Shown here piece after piece: positions 17,601-27,692 of a stretch of 64,000 nucleotides of DNA. The notes beneath the pieces were generated by a model. That model was given only the letters and a program-made list of their open reading frames with translations, did no database searches and was not told the DNA's origin. Location: the NCBI RefSeq assembly GCF_009914755.1, contig NC_060928.1; one strand, given 5' to 3'. The DNA comes from the human T2T-CHM13v2.0 reference genome, Homo sapiens. A program made the position numbers and the translations under genes. Within the stretch, counting starts at the first letter, position 1. Every line of letters starts with the position of its first letter.

Positions 17601-18223
17601 ATTTAAAAAGTTTTTGTTGGATACCAGCCACCTATAAGGTGTTCCATATATGCAAAGCCTGTCAGAATGGCCCTAACACAAATGTCTCCCATTTTCCCGA
17701 AATTGCTAAAGCATTTATTGTCTCTATCAACAATTCTCTAGTCCTCTTCCAAAGTCTTTGTTTGGGATGTGTACATCTTTCTTCCAGTTTGGTTGTCATC
17801 TGAAAGAAAGAAATCCTTGCCTCTTACTTCTAGATTTGCATGTTACTTAATAAATTCTGGTTGGCAAGACTTACTGGGACAAAACTGATAGTGACAGCTC
17901 AGCTGGAGAAAGGCTCTTCCAATTAAAAGTTCTGCAGTGCCTTCTGTCTTGGATCCTATACAAATAAGTAACTGTCTTTGTGTTCTCACGGTGAATGGCT
18001 CTGAACCAGGGCTATGTAAGAGATGGGGACCCTTTTGTCTACCCAGCTCCTTGGCTGACCCCCAGCAGACAGGGACACAATGCTGAAAGTGCTTGCCGAA
18101 TGAGACTGGGAATGTGGGTGGAGTCCCTCCAATCAGGAATAATGGAAAACTGAATTGCCAAAAGAAATTTTATCCTAATAAAATGAAGCACATGATTTAC
18201 CTTCCAGGTCCTTCAACTATTCT

Positions 18224-18343
18224 ATGGGAACCCGGGCATTTTCCCATGACAGTATTTTTATCCCTGATGGGGGAGCAGAAAGTGAGCAGACAGTTCAAGC
18301 AATGTCACAGGACAACATCCTGGGCAAAGTCAAAACTCTTCAG
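18224..18343 (+). CDS. CRACD: CRACD/KIAA1211 coding exon 1 (40 aa; exon begins 18208 with 16 nt of 5' UTR)
   Basis: MGTRAFSHDSIFIPDGGAESEQTVQAMSQDNILGKVKTLQ matches the recalled CRACD N-terminus; acceptor cttccag|18208, donor CAG|gtaaga, phase 0. Confidence 0.95.
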
Positions 18344-18601
18344 GTAAGACAGCTTGAGAGTGGAATTACGAGCCATAGGAGGGGCCCAGTTATGAAGGGA
18401 AGTGGGAAAAGTCCCGAGCTTGGCCTTGAGTAATGGATTGGGAGGTCCAGAGGTCACTCCTGGTGAGAATTATTGCTTTCTTGAATTCAACTGTATTCTC
18501 TGGAAACCTCCTGCCTACCTGCAAGAGCTACACTATCACCACTGCAGCCATCTGCATGACACACCCTCTCCTTTTCTTTCAAATTGTTCCCTCATATTTT
18601 A

Positions 18602-19012
<411 letters not shown>

Positions 19013-19381
19013 TCAGGGCTGACTGTTGACTGAGCGTGTGCACAACACATATCCACTTTCCGAGTCTCTGTAATTGGACAGTGAATGATACGACTCTATT
19101 TTTCTGTTGTATTTGTAAATCTCGCCACCCTAAGCCACCTTGTCTCAGAAGAAAATCACAAAGCTCTTAAGCCACTTCCAGTTCACTCTGCAGAGTGGGG
19201 CAGTTTTCCTACCTAAAATCTACTCGGGTGGTACCTCCCTAACAATGAAAATATAATAAATAATTATTCACTACATATGATTGAAATGACAGATAATACA
19301 GGAAAAGCAAGAAGAGCAGAGGCACTTAGAGCCTGACTATGAGGTCTGCCTAGCTGCTTGGCAGATAGAATTCTCTCATCT

Positions 19382-19678
19382 GGCCAGGCACAGTGGCTCA
19401 CTCCTATAATTCCAGCACTTTGGGAGGCCGAGGTGGGTGGACTGCTTGAACTCAGGAGTTTGAGACTAACCTGGGCAACATGGTGAAACCCCATCTCTAC
19501 CAAAAATACAAAAGTTAGCCGGGCATGGTTGTGCATGCCTGTAGTCCCAGCTTCTCAGGAGGCTGAGGTGGGAGGATGGCTTGAGCCCAGGAAGCAGAGG
19601 TTGCAGTGAACTGAGATTGCACCACTGCATGCCTTCCTGGGTGATAGAGTGAGAGCTTGTCCAAAAAAAAAAAAAAAA
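19382..19678 (+). mobile_element. Alu
   Basis: Dimeric Alu. Confidence 0.9.
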
Positions 19679-19919
19679 TTCGCTTACCCAAGAGAAATGC
19701 CCAAGCAAGCACTTCTCTGAGGCTCTCCAGCTAGCTGCTTGGAGGGTCTCCAGGTTATGAACAGAGGGCTCTGGTCTGCTGGCTTCCACCTGTCTGTAAG
19801 TCTACAACAATGGATTAAATGAATGAATCAATAAACGAGCAAAAAAAAAAAAAGGAAAAGAGAACAACTGCCCTCAGTAGCTACTGATATGCTGAAGCAC
19901 TGTACTCAGTAGAGATCAG

Positions 19920-20145
<226 letters not shown>

Positions 20146-22988
20146 TTATTTGTGAGGTGTTCTTGTTTCTATGGAGCGTAGGCTGTGTATTTTGTGATAT
20201 TTTGTGGAAATTGTGTCTGGTCACATATTCCACATAACACCCAGCTAAATGTAGCATGTGGCAGACAGGGAAGTAGCCAAGAGACCTTGGAACGACACCC
20301 AACTTGCCTAGGTCTTGATGCCTGCTGCCACCGCTGCCCAAAGCCATAGTCCTGCCCTCAGGGCCAACCCCAGACATGTCCTTCAAATCTTAGCATTTCC
20401 TAACTGGCTTCCATTCTTGGTTCTAGCTGGCCGTGCTCTAACACTTTTTATAGAAAAAGCAAGCTGTGACTTCTTATAGGTTGAAGAAGAGGGAAGTATG
20501 GTGATGGCCAAAGAAAACCTTGACCCCCCTCCTCCTTACCTTTCCTTCTTCAAGTCTTTTGATTCTTGCAATATTATTCCTAAGAAGTTGTGAACTTCTG
20601 GTTCATTGGATCCCCTTTCTAAGAGGAATGACTTACAGATTTCAGTTCACAAAACAGCTGTATTTTATGAGAGCTTTTTAGGAGTTTTTAAAAAATCAGA
20701 TAAAAATCTCTTGTCTTCAATGATACCTGCTCTGTCACATCATACCACATGCCACTGCCACGCCAAGAAGTGGATTTAGTGTTGTAAAAAAGTATACTAT
20801 ATAATTCTGCAGTATTGGAAAGATAGAAACCCAATAAAAATATTTCTGTTAACAGTAAGGCGTGATTTTAAATAACCTGATGTCATAATTAATAAAATGT
20901 AAAATGACTAACTTCCCCGAAGTGACAATTGCATAAACACAGGAAGAAAAATGTGAGTAAAGCAGAATAACTGTTTAATTTGTGTGCGCTCATTTTGACA
21001 ATATCTATTCAGATGAAGTCTGCCTAGTTTTGCTTCCGCTGCATGGATTCACAAGCTTCCTTTCAGCTCTGTAGTTATACTTTTGAAAACATAAAAGGCT
21101 TTGTTCATTCTTTGAGGAGGGAAATGGGGACCATTATCATAGAAAATGTGATTTTTTTTTTGGCGTGACTTGAGATATAACTGAATCATCCCCAAAAAGA
21201 CTGTGCTTTATTTTTCAGTCGACTAAGCAGTATGTTCCTGGTAAGTCGTAGAAGTGATAGTAACTTTATTAACTTGCATGAATGCTTTGCATTTTTCCAT
21301 GACAACGTGATGCTGGTATTGATGCTTAGTAAGCAGCCTAAGAGACCGCCCCCTTGTAGATGCCAGCATGGAATGAGAGAATTTAGTTGTGTCTGAGGCA
21401 TGTATGTTTTTATGTCTGGAATTGTCTTTGTGTATGTGTGTATGTTTATTTTTAAAAAGAGAGAAGTAATGGAAAACACCTATTTGACAGTGTATGTCCT
21501 GGCAAGCTGATTAGCCACCATTATTAAGACATTCTTCTGAGATGAGATGTCTACTGGAGTGCCTTTTTTCTCTGTGGCTTAAGAAACTTCCCAGCCCTTC
21601 GAGTTCCTAGAGACCCACGGAAGGGTGTCTGTCTGTAATGCCTGCCTTTGGAAAGGCTGCCCTCTAGTGCCTGCACATGGTGGGCTCACCGAGAACTGTC
21701 TTAGTTTGCAGGTTGGTATCTCTCCACGGAGTACAGAAGAACTCAATACAGCAAAAACCAGCCTCCCCTTTCCTGAGTAATGTGAATCTACCATCTGCCA
21801 CAATTTCTGTGGCAGATTTAAAAGAAAAAAATCACTATTTAAAAGAAAAATCACCATTTTTTTTCTAAAGATAAAAATAGTGCACGTGCAGAGTGAAAAC
21901 AAATTTTAATATATGGGGCAGTTATAGGGACAAAACCAACAGTGGTGTCCTTTGTGAGGACTCTGTACATAACAGAGTCGCTCTGTGGCCAGTAGTGTGA
22001 ATACCATTTGAATGAGTGACAGAATGCAGTGGAATATAAAGCCAGCCCCACCTGGCTGTATGGCTTTGGGTGAAGTCGTTCAACCTCTCTGGCACTTTCT
22101 CCTCCTGAAAACTAAGGGGCATGCACACAAGGGGTGATCTCAGGGCCCCTCCTGCTCTTAAGATCTGCGATCTCTATACAATCACTATTGAACTGCTGTA
22201 GCATGGAGCGGCTTCAGAAGCTTCGCACTTCGTTGCATTTCAGCTACAATGACCTTGACATTCCCTACAGCTGCCCACCAGCATGGATCAGGGAGGGTGC
22301 CTGTTTGTGTAAGATCAGACCGGGCTGTGAGGTATGTACCAACTGGTGATAAAACTCAGGGGTACCACAGTCTGAGGCTGCAGGTAATTGTTAGGATTAT
22401 ACCACACCTTTGTCAGGAAATGCTTAGTCTGTTTGTACCACGGATTATCTGGTGTAGGAGGGAACACCGCCATCCTGAGTGGCTTGTATCTCCCACCGAG
22501 CTGGATTTCACTTACAAATACCAAAGTCATACATTCGGGGATTTTGACACCTTACTGCAGCTGTCAAGGACACAAAGAATAAACACCCGCTCTTAGCCAC
22601 TTCTTCCTAGAGCAGGATGTCTTTAATTCTGTATGCTTTTTCTTTTTTTTTATTATTATTCATTTTAACTATGGAGATACCTGTAGTTTGCTCAAAAAGA
22701 CAGCAACTTTACTTATTTATTTTTTTCTGCTTTGCTCTTTAGACATAGTCTGAAGGATAGGAAAATCTAGACACTGGCAGAGAGCTGCAGAATATGGTGT
22801 GCTCGGCATTTCCACATTGTAGGAATAAGCCTTATAAATATGGATATGCATTCCTGTAATGTCATTCTCCAGCATTCCACATTACAACAAAATGGTCCAA
22901 TTTGAATGAATAAAATATAGTTCCTTGTAGCTCACATTCCAGTCTCAACAGTAACTCCATTCATGGCCACCAGCAACATGGAGTGTCA

Positions 22989-23469
<481 letters not shown>

Positions 23470-24488
23470 TTATTTCATAGTTCCTCTCATGACAATGCCT
23501 GAGTAGTGGGCAGAATTAAAGTAACAAAAAAGACACATTTATCCACATAGTCAATTCACATGACACCTGAGATTGTCAAACAGGTGTGAGCAGTAAACTT
23601 AATTGTTGATACAATAAATCACACAAAATGTCCTAACAACCAGTCTCCTCTGAGTTGGCTGAAGGAAGCATTCGGAGGAGGTACCACAGGGAGAGCCTGT
23701 AGGGGCGAGGCCTTGGCCTTGGCCTTGGGTACCTGAGGACTGAGCACCATGCGTCGGACCCTGAGTCCTGCCCTGGCCTGGGTCCACTGTCTCATCCCAG
23801 ATGGCTGTAGGGCATGTCTTCGAGGACAGTGCTTCGTCTGGACATAGAAACTGTAGCCCTCCTCTTCGTCACAGCCACCATTCTCCTCTTTCATCGCAGT
23901 TTCTCTTCCTAAGTTCCCCAGCCACCAGCCTGAGTTTGTTTTCTCTGGGGGGATTTCAAGTCAATTTCTTTACTAAGATGCACACTTTCATTCTAAAAGG
24001 CAACAGCATGATGCTGATTTTGCCAGGATGAACATATCTGTGACATACGTGATAGATACATTCTGCTTCCCTCCCTCCCTCTGCCTCTTCTCCCTCTGCC
24101 CTCCCCTGCCAACATCCCCCAGCTGTTGTAACTGCAGCTGGTCTGCTCTTCCTGGGCCCTGCTCCCTCTTCTTGCCTATGCATTTTCTCTGTTCCCTGTC
24201 CCTTCCTCTCGAATTGCCTCTTTAATTCTCAACTTCACTTCCTAACATTACTCTTTTCATTTCTCTGCTTTGCACCAGGCACCTTCTTTTTCCTGTTCTT
24301 ATTCCTTTTTTTTTTTTTTTTTTCTTTCCATGTTCTCTTTTCTGTTTGTAGATATAATAGTCATTCCATCTTTGGACATTATTTCAATTCAGACTGTGAT
24401 TACATTTTGCCTTATTCTTTTTTTGTCTCTTAAGCATCAGGATGGACCAACATGAGTATTATAACAAGGGCTCTAATGAAGTAAAACA

Positions 24489-25305
<817 letters not shown>

Positions 25306-26191
25306 TCAATCTAAGGGGATTTAGAACAGTTTCCAGTTCTTGGCCAACACTCCTAGAGAAGGCTGGGCTGGGCGGACACAGGAACCATTCTTCTGCACAG
25401 GTCCCCACCCCCTCTCCCAAGGCTGCAGGGTGAAATGGGCCTGTTACCTTGTTATTCCATGTCCTCTTGTCTAACTCCATCCATTGGCTGTTCTAACCAT
25501 GCCTGCTTATTGATTTGCTTAGAGTAGATAGATACTACCTGCCACTTCCTGTTGGACTTGTTTTTAGAAGACACCCTTTTCAGCCTTCTCCTCCCCACAA
25601 CCCTTCCAGGCTGCTGACGCTGTACTTCCCTTGCTGAACTTGGCTTTTCATGTGTGCTCCTGTCCTGTGAGGCTGGGAGAGCCAGGCATACAAGCCCTTG
25701 CCTGGCTGTGCTCCTGACTTGGCATGCTGGGGTCCCCAGGGGGCATGTGGAGGGGACCCTTGGGCTTATCTCTATTATATCTCTGCAGTCTCACTGCCCA
25801 CTGTGCAAGGCTGAGGGGGAGCTGGGCAAAGGTGGGTGGTTTTGGTACCGCTGAGTTCAAAGGGAGAGAAGACATTTCCCTCAAGGGATTCTTGCGCCAG
25901 GGAACATCATTGAAGTATTAGAAATACTCTGCCTCTTTATTTCTGCCCCTGGAAGAAAGAAGTACAAAGTCAAATTTATGAGCACCAGTGGAGTACAATG
26001 AAAACAACACTGAATGTTATTTTTAAAAGACCTGAGTTCAGATTCCTTTTGAGCCACTCATTCTTTCCGTAAGCTTGGGCCAGTCACCTCTCTCCACTGG
26101 GCCTCAGACATTTTTTGCAAAGTGAGGGGTTTGGAGTAGGTGATTGCTATGGCTTTTTGCAGCTCTGTGGGGTTAAATATTAGCCAGATTA

Positions 26192-26534
<343 letters not shown>

Positions 26535-26611
26535 GAGAAAGATGAACATTTCAGAAAATATATTCTTTGAGGAATATAATGACTATGTAACCCAAGGACC
26601 TAGGTCTAGAG

Positions 26612-26680
26612 CAGTGGTTCTCAGCTGGGGGCAATTTTACCCCCCAGGGGACTTTGGGCAACTTCTGGAGACATTTTTGC
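26612..26680. mobile_element. MER20-like fragment
   Basis: cagtggttctcagctgggggcaatttt...tctggagacatttttg. Confidence 0.7.
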
Positions 26681-27527
26681 TTTTCTAATCTGGCCTTCCT
26701 CTACTTGCAAATACTATTTAATCTTCCGAATTTCTACCCCATTTTCCCCTCCCTTTTCCCTGTCCTTCTAGCCACCACTCACCAGTAGTCAGTCCCTCCC
26801 TGGCCTTTCCCCATTTGGTTCCTCTGTCTCCTTTGTCACGGTTAGGTGGCCACAGCAAGGCAAAGAGGACGTCTAGATTGTTCCTATCCTTTATAGGGTT
26901 TTAGTATTGATCATGGAAAGACTTGCTGGCCCTGGGGCCTTCTTTGCCTTGGCAGCGACCCAGTGTGGCAGAATGCAATGTTCTGGTTTGGGGTCTCAAG
27001 CTAAGGGCTGGTGAGGAAGGCTGCGGAAGTATAAATCTTCAAAGTGAATATGTCCCAAAGGGGCTGGAGAGTTGCACCAACCTTTAGGGTCTTGATTTCC
27101 CTCAGTGGTTCCTACATTTCATGTAACTGTTTTCTATAATTTTTTTTGCACTTTTAAGAGACTTTTTATGTAAATGAATTTATAGGTTAATGAAAAATTT
27201 TTGTCATAACATATATCCCAACTTTTGGTTCAGAAAATGTGGCCACCATGCCCACTGGGAAATGTTGGGATCTCCATGAAAGAGGTGGCTGGATGAAAAA
27301 GCTCATGGCTTGAAGGTGGGAAAGAAAAAAAAAGAACAGAGAAGAAAGTGGAAAACAAATTAACTTATTACAGGATGGCATCATGGTTTCCTGGCATGGT
27401 GTTGAGTCTAGAAATCAGTTGTGCACAAGGTATGCCTCAGTGCTCACTAGACATGCTGGAGAACCTGGTTGTGGTGGTTGTGAACTGCTTCACTGCTTCA
27501 GAATGTCTTTCTTCTGTTTCTCTCCAG

Positions 27528-27692
27528 CAACAGTTGGGCAAGAATATCAAGTTTGGGCAGCGGTCACCCAATGCCATTCCCATGAATAAGGCAAACAGTG
27601 GAGAGGCTAGCTTAGAAGAGGATCTGTTCCTGACCAGTCCCATGGAAATTGTGACTCAGCAGGACATCGTCCTCTCAGACGCAGAGAACAAG
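27528..27692 (+). CDS. CRACD: CRACD coding exon 2 (55 aa)
   Basis: QQLGKNIKFG...VLSDAENK; polypyrimidine tract + cag acceptor, AAG|gtaagt donor, 165 nt, phase 0-0. Confidence 0.95.

What the first reader, a model, noticed from the sequence alone, without database searches (positions are those of the whole stretch)
21200..21450. Candidate 22-nt neural-type microexon in CRACD coding intron 1
Seen: ctgtgctttatttttcag|TCGACTAAGCAGTATGTTCCTG|gtaagt, a clean acceptor and a consensus donor only 22 nt apart (21219-21240). A TGC lies ~12 nt upstream of the AG. TGCATG lies at 21275-21280, with further GCATG near 21366 and 21398 and a UG-rich tract near 21430. Known: UGC just before the 3' splice site marks SRRM4/nSR100 microexons, and downstream UGCAUG marks RBFOX-activated exons. 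Inference: spliced alone between coding exons 1 and 2 it frameshifts (STKQYVPATVGQEYQVWAAVTQCHSHE*) and acts as a poison/NMD switch. It also ends in ATG TTC CTG in phase 0 with exon 2, so it could supply an alternative MFL- N-terminus.
Basis: partly seen in the sequence, partly recalled or inferred. Interest (0 to 1): 0.75.

Follow-up and report, generated by a model that had tools for sequence, protein, structure and literature searches.

The report
Annotated frame-switching 22-nt CRACD exon
The 22-base stretch is a real, already annotated alternative exon of the human CRACD gene, conserved in placental and marsupial mammals, that decides which of two overlapping reading frames of the preceding exon leads into the rest of the protein.

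Summary
It is not new. The hub's RefSeq table already lists 21219-21240 as a CRACD exon.

Database proteins and spliced contig ORFs from many mammals contain it.

Because 22 = 3n+1, inclusion joins that frame to the normal CRACD frame, giving ORFs of 1239 and 1232 aa. Of 38 full-length database proteins found with that +1 peptide, 33 carry the same eight microexon-encoded residues, opossum included.

Spliced contigs from other mammals also combine the exon with an upstream frame-0 ORF. There it truncates the protein.

Best reading: a frame-selector exon, productive from +1 starts and truncating (NMD-eligible) from frame-0 starts. Neural SRRM4/RBFOX control is untested; only the GCATG cluster exceeds chance.

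The parts
21219..21240 (+). 22-nt alternative (cassette) exon of CRACD. Frame 0 reads S T K Q Y V P plus 1 nt. The +1 frame reads (AG)T CGA CTA AGC AGT ATG TTC CTG.
   Evidence: The hub RefSeq table lists it as an exon of other transcripts. Its peptide is present in 35 of 38 +1-frame isoforms and in 11 frame-0 ORFs.
21200..21218 (+). 3' splice region: TGC at 21204-21206, pyrimidine tract ctttatttttc, AG at 21217-21218.
   Evidence: The only yUnAy motif in the 80 nt upstream lies 8 nt from the AG, so the branch point was not identified.
21241..21246 (+). 5' splice site. CTG|GTAAGT matches 8 of 9 positions of the CAG|GTAAGT consensus (consensus recalled).
21275..21402 (+). Downstream intronic (U)GCAUG cluster: TGCATG at 21275-21280, GCATG at 21366-21370 and 21398-21402. 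These are candidate RBFOX sites.
   Evidence: Three or more GCATG per 200 nt occurs in 0.39% of windows.
21040..21045 (+). Upstream intronic TGCATG, about 175 nt before the acceptor.
21420..21450 (+). T+G-rich tract (81% T+G).
18208..18343 (+). CRACD exon holding the canonical start (ATG 18224, frame 0) and two +1-frame ATGs (18246, 18267). An alternative exon start at 18251 is annotated.
   Evidence: hub table.
18246..18343 (+). 98-nt stretch read in two frames. Frame 0 gives canonical residues 8-40. The +1 frame gives 32 codons plus 2 nt that the microexon completes.
27528..27692 (+). Next coding exon. It is read in the normal frame after skipping from ATG 18224, or after inclusion from ATG 18246/18267. 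After inclusion from ATG 18224 it is read out of frame, with TAA at 27587-27589.

Best explanation
The 22-nt stretch is a genuine, already annotated alternative exon of CRACD. It is conserved in placental and marsupial mammals. Because its length is 3n+1, it acts as a reading-frame selector for the exon upstream of it (18208-18343).

When translation runs in frame 0, from ATG 18224 or from an ORF in upstream exons, skipping gives full-length CRACD. Inclusion then gives a stop at 27587-27589, that is, a truncated product and an NMD-eligible mRNA.

When translation runs in the +1 frame, the outcome is reversed. The +1 frame is entered from ATG 18246, ATG 18267 or +1 starts in alternative 5' exons, or from transcripts beginning at the annotated alternative exon start 18251, which lack ATG 18224 and ATG 18246. 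For these, only inclusion gives full-length CRACD.

That isoform keeps the DUF4592 domain and everything after it. It replaces the acidic 40-residue N-terminus, which carries the SHDSIFIP motif shared with CRACDL, with a basic 40-residue peptide.

Shown: the exon, the frames, the ORFs, the presence of both kinds of product in databases and contigs, and the near-invariance of both frames. Inferred: that the +1 protein is actually translated (by leaky scanning past weak-context ATG 18224 or from alternative 5' ends), that NMD acts on the frame-0 inclusion form, and the pairing of start 18251 with the microexon.
For: - Exon and splice sites; the hub RefSeq table lists 21219-21240.
- ORFs with inclusion: ATG 18224 gives 67 aa, ATG 18246 gives 1239 aa, ATG 18267 gives 1232 aa, ATG 21232 gives 1202 aa. 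Without inclusion, 18246 and 18267 give 51 and 44 aa.
- Database search with the +1 peptide returned 41 proteins, 38 of them longer than 400 aa. The named ones are all CRACD of therian mammals: primates, rodents, rabbit, carnivores, donkey, camel, cetaceans, bats, shrew, pangolin and opossum.
- Of those 38, 33 carry the identical microexon peptide, 2 carry variants, and 3 are other gene models. In 29 of 38 the +1 peptide is identical to human.
- Positions that are synonymous third positions in frame 0 are second positions in the +1 frame, so this identity means they hardly vary.
- The exon-1 part averages 98.0% identity to human, against 79.5% for the exon-2 part, in 86 canonical full-length proteins.
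- Single substitutions show up coherently in both frames. Examples are voles, S20N in frame 0 with V>M in the +1 frame, and marsupials, L39H with F>I.
- Truncating use: 11 of the 120 listed canonical hits read exon 1, microexon and out-of-frame exon 2. Seven of the 10 fetched have a further upstream frame-0 ORF.
- The human genome keeps that upstream coding exon intact and in phase, at window -7676..-7497.
- The stop lies 103 nt before the exon-2 donor.
- DUF4592 lies at residues 45-173 in both isoform types.
- The N-terminal pI is 4.8 for the canonical form and 11.1 for the alternative form.
- ATG 18224 has U at -3.
Against: - No human junction reads, Ribo-seq or peptides could be examined.
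- The 38 +1-frame proteins are mostly automatic models that take the longest ORF, so they do not show translation.
- The search retrieves only species whose +1 peptide still resembles the human one (ascertainment bias).
- The constraint argument is made from proteins, not from aligned DNA, and uses recalled neutral rates.
- Extra synonymous constraint could come from splicing or RNA-level signals instead of a second frame.
- ATG 18246 and 18267 also have weak contexts (C at -3). They lie downstream of ATG 18224 and, in long isoforms, inside an upstream-initiated ORF, where they cannot be reached.
- That start 18251 and the microexon occur in the same RefSeq transcript is not shown in the hub table.
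Confidence: 0.55

Rival explanations
1. Pure poison exon. Inclusion serves only to shut off CRACD by a premature stop, through NMD or a truncated N-terminal fragment of about 70-160 aa. The +1-frame 'isoforms' are by-products of longest-ORF annotation and are not made.
For: - From ATG 18224, inclusion gives 67 aa with the stop 103 nt before the next junction.
- Spliced contig ORFs from several mammals combine the microexon with an upstream frame-0 ORF, from which the +1 ATGs cannot be reached.
- Human retains that upstream exon in phase.
- One Ensembl/UniProt model (yak, P0048) annotates the truncated product.
- ATG 18246/18267 have weak contexts.
Against: - It does not explain why frame-0 synonymous positions across 32 codons of exon 1 are almost invariant in 29 of 38 species, nor why both +1 ATGs are kept.
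- Gene models exist with +1-frame starts in alternative 5' exons (Arvicanthis P0004, Saimiri P0002), as does a human annotated exon start at 18251 that removes ATG 18224 (hub table).
- Inclusion transcripts are common enough to be assembled repeatedly (27 contigs for the P0064 cluster), which fits poorly with efficient NMD.
Confidence: 0.3
2. Neural or neuroendocrine SRRM4/SRRM3- and RBFOX-activated microexon. It is independent of the coding question, so its probability does not add up with the others.
For: - Length of 22 nt.
- TGC 13-15 nt before the exon.
- TGCATG 35 nt and GCATG 126 and 158 nt into the downstream intron.
- The GCATG cluster is rare, occurring in 0.39% of windows.
Against: - The TGC is at chance level (27.5-34.5% of AGs).
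- The length is not a multiple of three, whereas neural microexons are typically frame-preserving (recalled).
- An upstream TGCATG is also present.
- The gene symbols were not found in the searched supplements of Head 2021 (12 of 18 files), Li 2015 (4 of 5 files), MicroExonator (7 files) or Ciampi 2022 (12 of 17 files).
- No paper holds CRACD or KIAA1211 together with 'microexon'.
- Motif conservation could not be tested.
Confidence: 0.3
3. The exon supplies the start codon itself (ATG 21232), giving a CRACD that begins MFL and lacks any exon-1-encoded residues.
For: ATG 21232 is in phase with exon 2 and gives a 1202-aa ORF. One gene model, tammar wallaby P0162, starts exactly this way.
Against: - In 35 of 38 models the same residues are internal, at positions 38-40 of the 40-residue N-terminus.
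- It needs a 5' end with no earlier usable ATG.
- The context is AGCAGT-ATG-T, with A at -3 and T at +4.
- Only 1 model among all hits uses it.
Confidence: 0.07
4. Splicing noise: a chance acceptor/donor pair used at trace level, without function.
For: Such pairs occur at chance frequency in the window (2 observed against 2.07 expected).
Against: The exon peptide is identical in 33 of 38 isoforms from placentals to opossum, and is present in wallaby. It also appears in independent spliced contigs.
Confidence: 0.03

Closest known systems
Annotated CRACD transcript variants and predicted isoforms with the alternative N-terminus (RefSeq/Gnomon, Ensembl/UniProt models in many mammals)
   Same: It is the same exon and the same protein reading. 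The hub table lists 21219-21240, and 35 of 38 retrieved isoforms join the +1 frame of exon 1 to exon 2 through it.
   Different: Nothing differs. What is added here is the explicit frame logic, the cross-species counts and the truncating combination with upstream frame-0 ORFs. No paper describing it was found.
Poison (NMD-coupled) cassette exons, such as the conserved ones in SR-protein genes (recalled)
   Same: A short, highly conserved cassette exon that puts a premature stop more than 55 nt before a downstream junction in the main frame.
   Different: Here the same exon is the only productive path for a second, overlapping frame. NMD sensitivity was not tested.
Dual-coding loci switched by splicing: CDKN2A p16INK4a/ARF, GNAS XLalphas/ALEX, and the 26-nt frame switch of XBP1 (recalled)
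   Same: One stretch of exon is read in two frames, and a splicing choice decides which frame continues into the shared body. Both frames are conserved.
   Different: The overlap is short (32 codons) and N-terminal. The two products share over 96% of their sequence. Translation of the second frame is not shown.
SRRM4/SRRM3 (eMIC)-dependent neural microexons
   Same: Size (27 nt or less), TGC shortly before the 3' splice site and a strong 5' splice site.
   Different: It is not frame-preserving. The pyrimidine tract lies between the TGC and the AG. No tissue or perturbation data were available, and the gene is absent from the searched tables.
RBFOX-activated exons with downstream (U)GCAUG
   Same: One UGCAUG and two GCAUG lie within 160 nt downstream.
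   Different: There is also an upstream UGCAUG. Conservation, CLIP and knock-down were not testable here. The gene is absent from the searched Li 2015 supplements.

Membership tests
Cassette microexon (27 nt or less) of a protein-coding gene | Length of 27 nt or less, with AG/GT boundaries inside an intron of the gene | tested here: met
   22 nt, AG at 21217-21218, GT at 21241-21242, between exons ending at 18343 and starting at 27528.
Cassette microexon (27 nt or less) of a protein-coding gene | Found spliced into transcripts | tested here: met
   The hub RefSeq table covers human. In other mammals, 11 of the 120 listed canonical hits and 35 of 38 +1-frame isoforms contain it without introns. 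Human reads themselves were not seen.
Poison exon / AS-NMD | Inclusion creates a stop more than 50-55 nt upstream of a later exon junction in the main frame | tested here: met
   TAA at 27587-27589, 103 nt before the exon-2 donor, with six more junctions downstream (hub table).
Poison exon / AS-NMD | Inclusion isoform stabilised when NMD is blocked | not testable with these tools
   No expression data available.
Dual-coding exon switched by alternative splicing | Two ORFs in different frames over the same nucleotides, each continuing into a long product under one splice form | tested here: met
   Frame 0 with skipping gives 1239 aa. The +1 frame with inclusion gives 1239 or 1232 aa.
Dual-coding exon switched by alternative splicing | Both frames conserved, with depressed synonymous variation in the overlap | tested here: inconclusive
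   The +1 peptide is identical to human in 29 of 38 proteins. The exon-1 part is 98.0% identical against 79.5% for the exon-2 part. This is protein-level only, with ascertainment bias. DNA of other species could not be obtained.
Dual-coding exon switched by alternative splicing | Both products translated | not testable with these tools
   No Ribo-seq or proteomics.
SRRM4/SRRM3-dependent neural microexon | UGC motif close upstream of the 3' splice site | tested here: met
   TGC at 21204-21206. However, it is present at 34.5% of acceptor-like AGs in the window, so it carries little weight.
SRRM4/SRRM3-dependent neural microexon | Neural-enriched inclusion and dependence on SRRM3/4 | not testable with these tools
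   No RNA-seq. The gene symbols were absent from the searched supplements (some files were not searched, and tables may use other identifiers).
SRRM4/SRRM3-dependent neural microexon | Frame preservation (typical of the programme rather than strictly defining; recalled) | tested here: not met
   22 = 3x7+1.
RBFOX-activated exon | (U)GCAUG within about 300 nt downstream | tested here: met
   Sites at 21275, 21366 and 21398. Such a cluster is found in 0.39% of 200-nt windows.
RBFOX-activated exon | Motif conservation, RBFOX binding and response | not testable with these tools
   No DNA of other mammals was reachable. No CLIP or knock-down data.

The most novel reading that the evidence does not exclude
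CRACD has a dual-coding N-terminus conserved across therian mammals. The same 98 nt of exon 18208-18343 encode, in two frames, either an acidic peptide with the SHDSIFIP motif shared with CRACDL or a basic peptide (pI about 11). The 22-nt exon, coupled to the choice of 5' end or start codon, toggles between them. Both proteins would be made and be under purifying selection. In transcripts started upstream in frame 0, the same exon acts as an off-switch. No paper found here describes this.
Probability: 0.4. Interest if true: 0.5.

Novelty: already known. Interest (0 to 1): 0.3.

Why it matters
CRACD is an actin-capping-protein inhibitor studied as a tumour suppressor in colorectal, lung and gastric cancer; this comes from listings and abstracts.

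If the exon selects between two N-termini and an off state, three things depend on it:
- transcript-level expression values;
- knock-out designs in early exons; PMC6617212 passages mention an exon-2 allele and an exon-6 allele with unclear null status;
- antibodies against the N-terminus.

All three can mislead unless the 5' end and the microexon are scored together. As a discovery it is modest, because the exon and the isoforms are already in the annotation.

Tried and rejected
- **DNA of other mammals, to test AG/GT and GCATG conservation.** Exact-pattern scans found nothing: the microexon with its splice sites in genome contigs and viral contigs, and an exon-1 core in genome contigs, each gave 0 matches. 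Intronic motif conservation therefore stays untested.
- **Paralogue.** The 301-nt region has no second copy in the human assembly. The CRACDL counterpart of exon 1 (chr2, 48% identity over 40 aa) also has an open +1 frame of about 65 codons but no ATG at the equivalent place. The CRACDL counterpart of exon 2 was not found, so an equivalent microexon was not looked for.
- **Non-therian depth.** A search with the opossum N-terminus (residues 1-60) gave only therian proteins: 40 of 40 candidates. No monotreme, bird, reptile or fish model with this N-terminus was found. This is weak evidence, because the search depends on shared words and on annotation.
- **Amphipathic helix in the alternative N-terminus.** The maximum hydrophobic moment within the 40 residues is 0.50 (0.52 across the junction with exon 2). 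The 95th percentile of shuffles is 0.56, and the canonical form reaches 0.54. This is not distinctive, so it was dropped.
- **Branch point.** No usable yUnAy was found within 80 nt, so no statement is made.
- **Literature.**
  - 0 papers hold KIAA1211 plus microexon, and 0 hold CRACD plus microexon.
  - Nothing on isoforms appeared in the passages of PMC7558608 and PMC6617212.
  - PMC13621357 lists an unspecified CRACD skipped-exon event in melanoma cells.
  - The KIAA1211 mentions in PMC3751903 concern an exon-8 repeat expansion.
  - Supplement searches gave no hits.
  - Four papers were not held under the ids given. Three of those ids were recalled and may be wrong; the fourth was taken from a reference list shown.
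Full report
**Observation.** Reading the window confirms every feature at the stated coordinates.
- The exon is TCGACTAAGCAGTATGTTCCTG at 21219-21240.
- The acceptor context is ctgtgctttatttttcag and the donor is gtaagt.
- TGC lies at 21204-21206. TGCATG lies at 21275-21280, and GCATG at 21366 and 21398.
- A T+G-rich tract lies at 21420-21450.
- A further TGCATG lies upstream at 21040-21045.
From ATG 18224 with the exon included, the ORF is 67 aa and stops at TAA 27587-27589, 103 nt before the exon-2 donor.

**Chance.** The splice-site pair alone is not remarkable.
- With my criteria (at least 9 of 12 pyrimidines, YAG, no AG in the tract, donor 3-51 nt downstream), the + strand of the window holds 2 pairs with GTAAGT, against a mean of 2.07 in 200 shuffles. 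With GTRAGT it holds 4 against 4.57.
- A TGC within 23 nt upstream is present at 1346 of 4891 AGs (27.5%) and at 98 of 284 acceptor-like AGs (34.5%).
- Only the GCATG cluster stands out. Three in 200 nt is the window maximum and occurs in 0.39% of 200-nt windows.

**Already annotated, and present in other mammals.** The hub's RefSeq table lists 21219-21240 among the exons of other CRACD transcripts, so the exon is known.

Independent support comes from a search with the canonical 40-residue N-terminus (256 hits among 258 candidates, best 120 listed). I classified those 120:

| Class | Count |
|---|---|
| Join exon 1 directly to exon 2 (79 by pattern plus 9 with variant first residues) | 88 |
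| Read exon 1, then the microexon in frame 0, then exon 2 out of frame (10 plus P0110, which has one substitution) | 11 |
| Run from exon 1 into the intron (genomic or unspliced) | 17 |
| Other (P0044, P0055, P0066, P0119) | 4 |

The 11 inclusion ORFs come mostly from unnamed assembled contigs. Because they lack the introns, those contigs must derive from spliced RNA. The aa differences among them show that several species are represented.

Exon 18208-18343 holds three ATGs: 18224 in frame 0, and 18246 and 18267 in the +1 frame.

| Start | Microexon skipped | Microexon included |
|---|---|---|
| ATG 18224 | 1239 aa | 67 aa |
| ATG 18246 | 51 aa | 1239 aa |
| ATG 18267 | 44 aa | 1232 aa |
| ATG 21232 (inside the microexon) | not applicable | 1202 aa |

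Because 22 = 3n+1, inclusion joins the +1 frame to the CRACD frame. The hub table also lists an alternative exon start at 18251. That start removes ATG 18224 and ATG 18246 and leaves ATG 18267 as the first ATG within this exon. Such a transcript can encode CRACD only with the microexon. That the two features sit in the same transcript is my inference.

**The +1-frame N-terminus in databases.**
- A search with the +1 translation of 18210-18341 gave 41 proteins out of 41 candidates.
- Three are short genomic ORFs that end at the exon-1 donor (P0001, P0003, P0006).
- The other 38 exceed 400 aa. All but one unnamed metaclust record (P0038) are named CRACD (or KIAA1211 homolog), and all carry the CRACD Pfam domain PF15262. 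They come from primates, rodents, rabbit, carnivores, donkey, camel, cetaceans, bats, a shrew, a pangolin and the opossum.
- Of the 38, 33 have the identical eight microexon-encoded residues between the exon-1 and exon-2 parts. Vaquita and rabbit have one variant each.
- Three are different gene models (polar bear P0027, gibbon P0040, night monkey P0041). The last two use a non-canonical path through window 27459-27527 and look like artefacts.
- A second search from the opossum N-terminus added no non-therian species.
- The exon is therefore at least as old as the placental-marsupial split.

**Is the +1 frame more than an annotation habit?** Automatic pipelines take the longest ORF, so these models do not show translation. 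The argument for a real second frame rests on constraint.
- Third positions of frame 0 are second positions of the +1 frame. An unchanged +1 peptide therefore means unchanged frame-0 synonymous sites.
- The +1 peptide is identical to human in 29 of 38 proteins: 17 over all 32 residues, and 12 over the 25 residues from the second ATG.
- By my reading, changes that are synonymous in frame 0 appear only in the shrew (P0024), P0038, the rabbit and the opossum, about five in all.
- With ordinary mammalian synonymous divergence (recalled: roughly 0.4-0.6 per site between human and mouse) one would expect several per species.
- The exon-1 part averages 98.0% identity to human, against 79.5% for the exon-2 part, in 86 canonical full-length proteins.
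- Single substitutions are seen coherently in both frames. Examples are voles, S20N with V>M, and marsupials, L39H with F>I.

Limits of this argument:
- The test is at protein level only.
- It is biased toward species that still resemble human.
- Synonymous constraint can have other causes, such as splicing signals.

**Evidence for the truncating reading.**
- Seven of the ten inclusion ORFs that I fetched (P0047, P0049, P0050, P0058, P0064, P0110, P0121) extend upstream of ATG 18224 in frame 0, through a conserved basic, lysine-rich segment encoded by upstream exons.
- In such transcripts the +1 ATGs lie inside a translated ORF, so the microexon can only truncate the protein to about 107-163 aa.
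- The human genome keeps that upstream coding exon intact at chr4:59760324-59760503 (window -7676..-7497). It ends in a GT donor and is in phase with 18208.
- Some species lack ATG 18224 altogether. The first residue is V or L in 7 of 120 proteins, which fits an upstream start there.
- So the poison reading is real for one class of transcripts. Whether NMD acts on them is not tested.
- The P0064 cluster stands for 27 contigs, which suggests the form is not rare.

**Regulation.** Nothing here tests tissue specificity or the dependence on SRRM3/4 or RBFOX.
- The motifs fit loosely (see the chance paragraph).
- The length is not a multiple of three.
- The pyrimidine tract sits between the TGC and the AG.
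- No branch-point consensus was found within 80 nt.
- The gene symbols were absent from the searched supplements of PMC7935315 (12 of 18 files), PMC4317164 (4 of 5), PMC7821500 (7 files) and PMC9303857 (12 of 17). Those tables may use other identifiers, and the unseen files may bear on this.
- Passages of PMC7558608 report Cracd up-regulation in Ptbp2-deficient mouse testis. This is a lead for PTB-type control of this pyrimidine-rich acceptor, nothing more.

**Protein consequence.**
- Pfam DUF4592 covers residues 45-173 in both a +1-frame isoform (P0016) and a canonical one (P0065). The switch therefore replaces exactly the 40 residues in front of the domain.
- The canonical 40 residues are acidic (pI 4.8) and share 48% identity with the CRACDL exon.
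- The alternative 40 residues are basic (pI 11.1; 7 K+R, 1 D+E).
- A helix-amphipathicity test did not separate them from shuffles.

**Comparison and novelty.**
- It works like a poison exon for frame-0 transcripts. For +1 transcripts it works like the splice-selected dual-coding arrangements of CDKN2A, GNAS or XBP1 (recalled).
- Membership as a cassette microexon is met.
- Membership in the SRRM4 and RBFOX programmes is not established.
- The exon and the isoforms are already in RefSeq, Gnomon, Ensembl and UniProt. No paper on them was found in the library.
- Verdict: already known, ordinary as an annotation item.

Noticed in passing
outside the window: window -7676..-7497 (G000 C4:59760324-59760503; locus L005): There is an intact upstream CRACD coding exon (lysine-rich, basic segment) ending in a GT donor and in phase with exon 18208. 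Orthologue contig ORFs start still further upstream. Human CRACD may therefore have longer N-terminal isoforms than the one starting at ATG 18224.
   Followed up: partly
window 18087-18207: The +1 frame stays open from 18087 through the acceptor of exon 18208, with ATGs at 18183 and 18192. The same intronic ORF appears in a squirrel-monkey model (P0002) and in three unnamed genomic ORFs (P0001, P0003, P0006). This hints at a conserved alternative 5' end just upstream of the exon.
   Followed up: partly
L003 (G000 C2:99289802-99292921, minus strand): The CRACDL counterpart of this exon (48% identity over 40 aa, shared SHDSIFIP motif) also has an open +1 frame of about 65 codons, without an ATG at the equivalent place.
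   Followed up: partly
window intron 18344-27527: Other species place other alternative exons in this intron. A fruit-bat model (P0066) has an in-frame 19-residue insert, and mouse 'isoform 5' (P0055, 72 aa) ends in a different exon. The intron seems to be a hot spot for alternative exons.
   Followed up: no
window 27459-27527: Two primate gene models (P0040, P0041) translate the 69 nt of intron just before exon 2 and leave exon 1 at a non-GT site. They are probably projection artefacts that try to repair the +1 frame without the microexon.
   Followed up: partly
window 27679-27692: This is the only other acceptor-like/GTAAGT pair on the + strand. It is an internal AG 14 nt before the true donor of exon 2, and it illustrates that such pairs arise by chance.
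   Followed up: yes
window 21154-21163: There is a run of ten T about 55 nt before the acceptor, in addition to the tract at the acceptor itself. These are possible PTB-type binding sites. Cracd mRNA is reported to rise in Ptbp2-deficient mouse testis (PMC7558608, passages).
   Followed up: no
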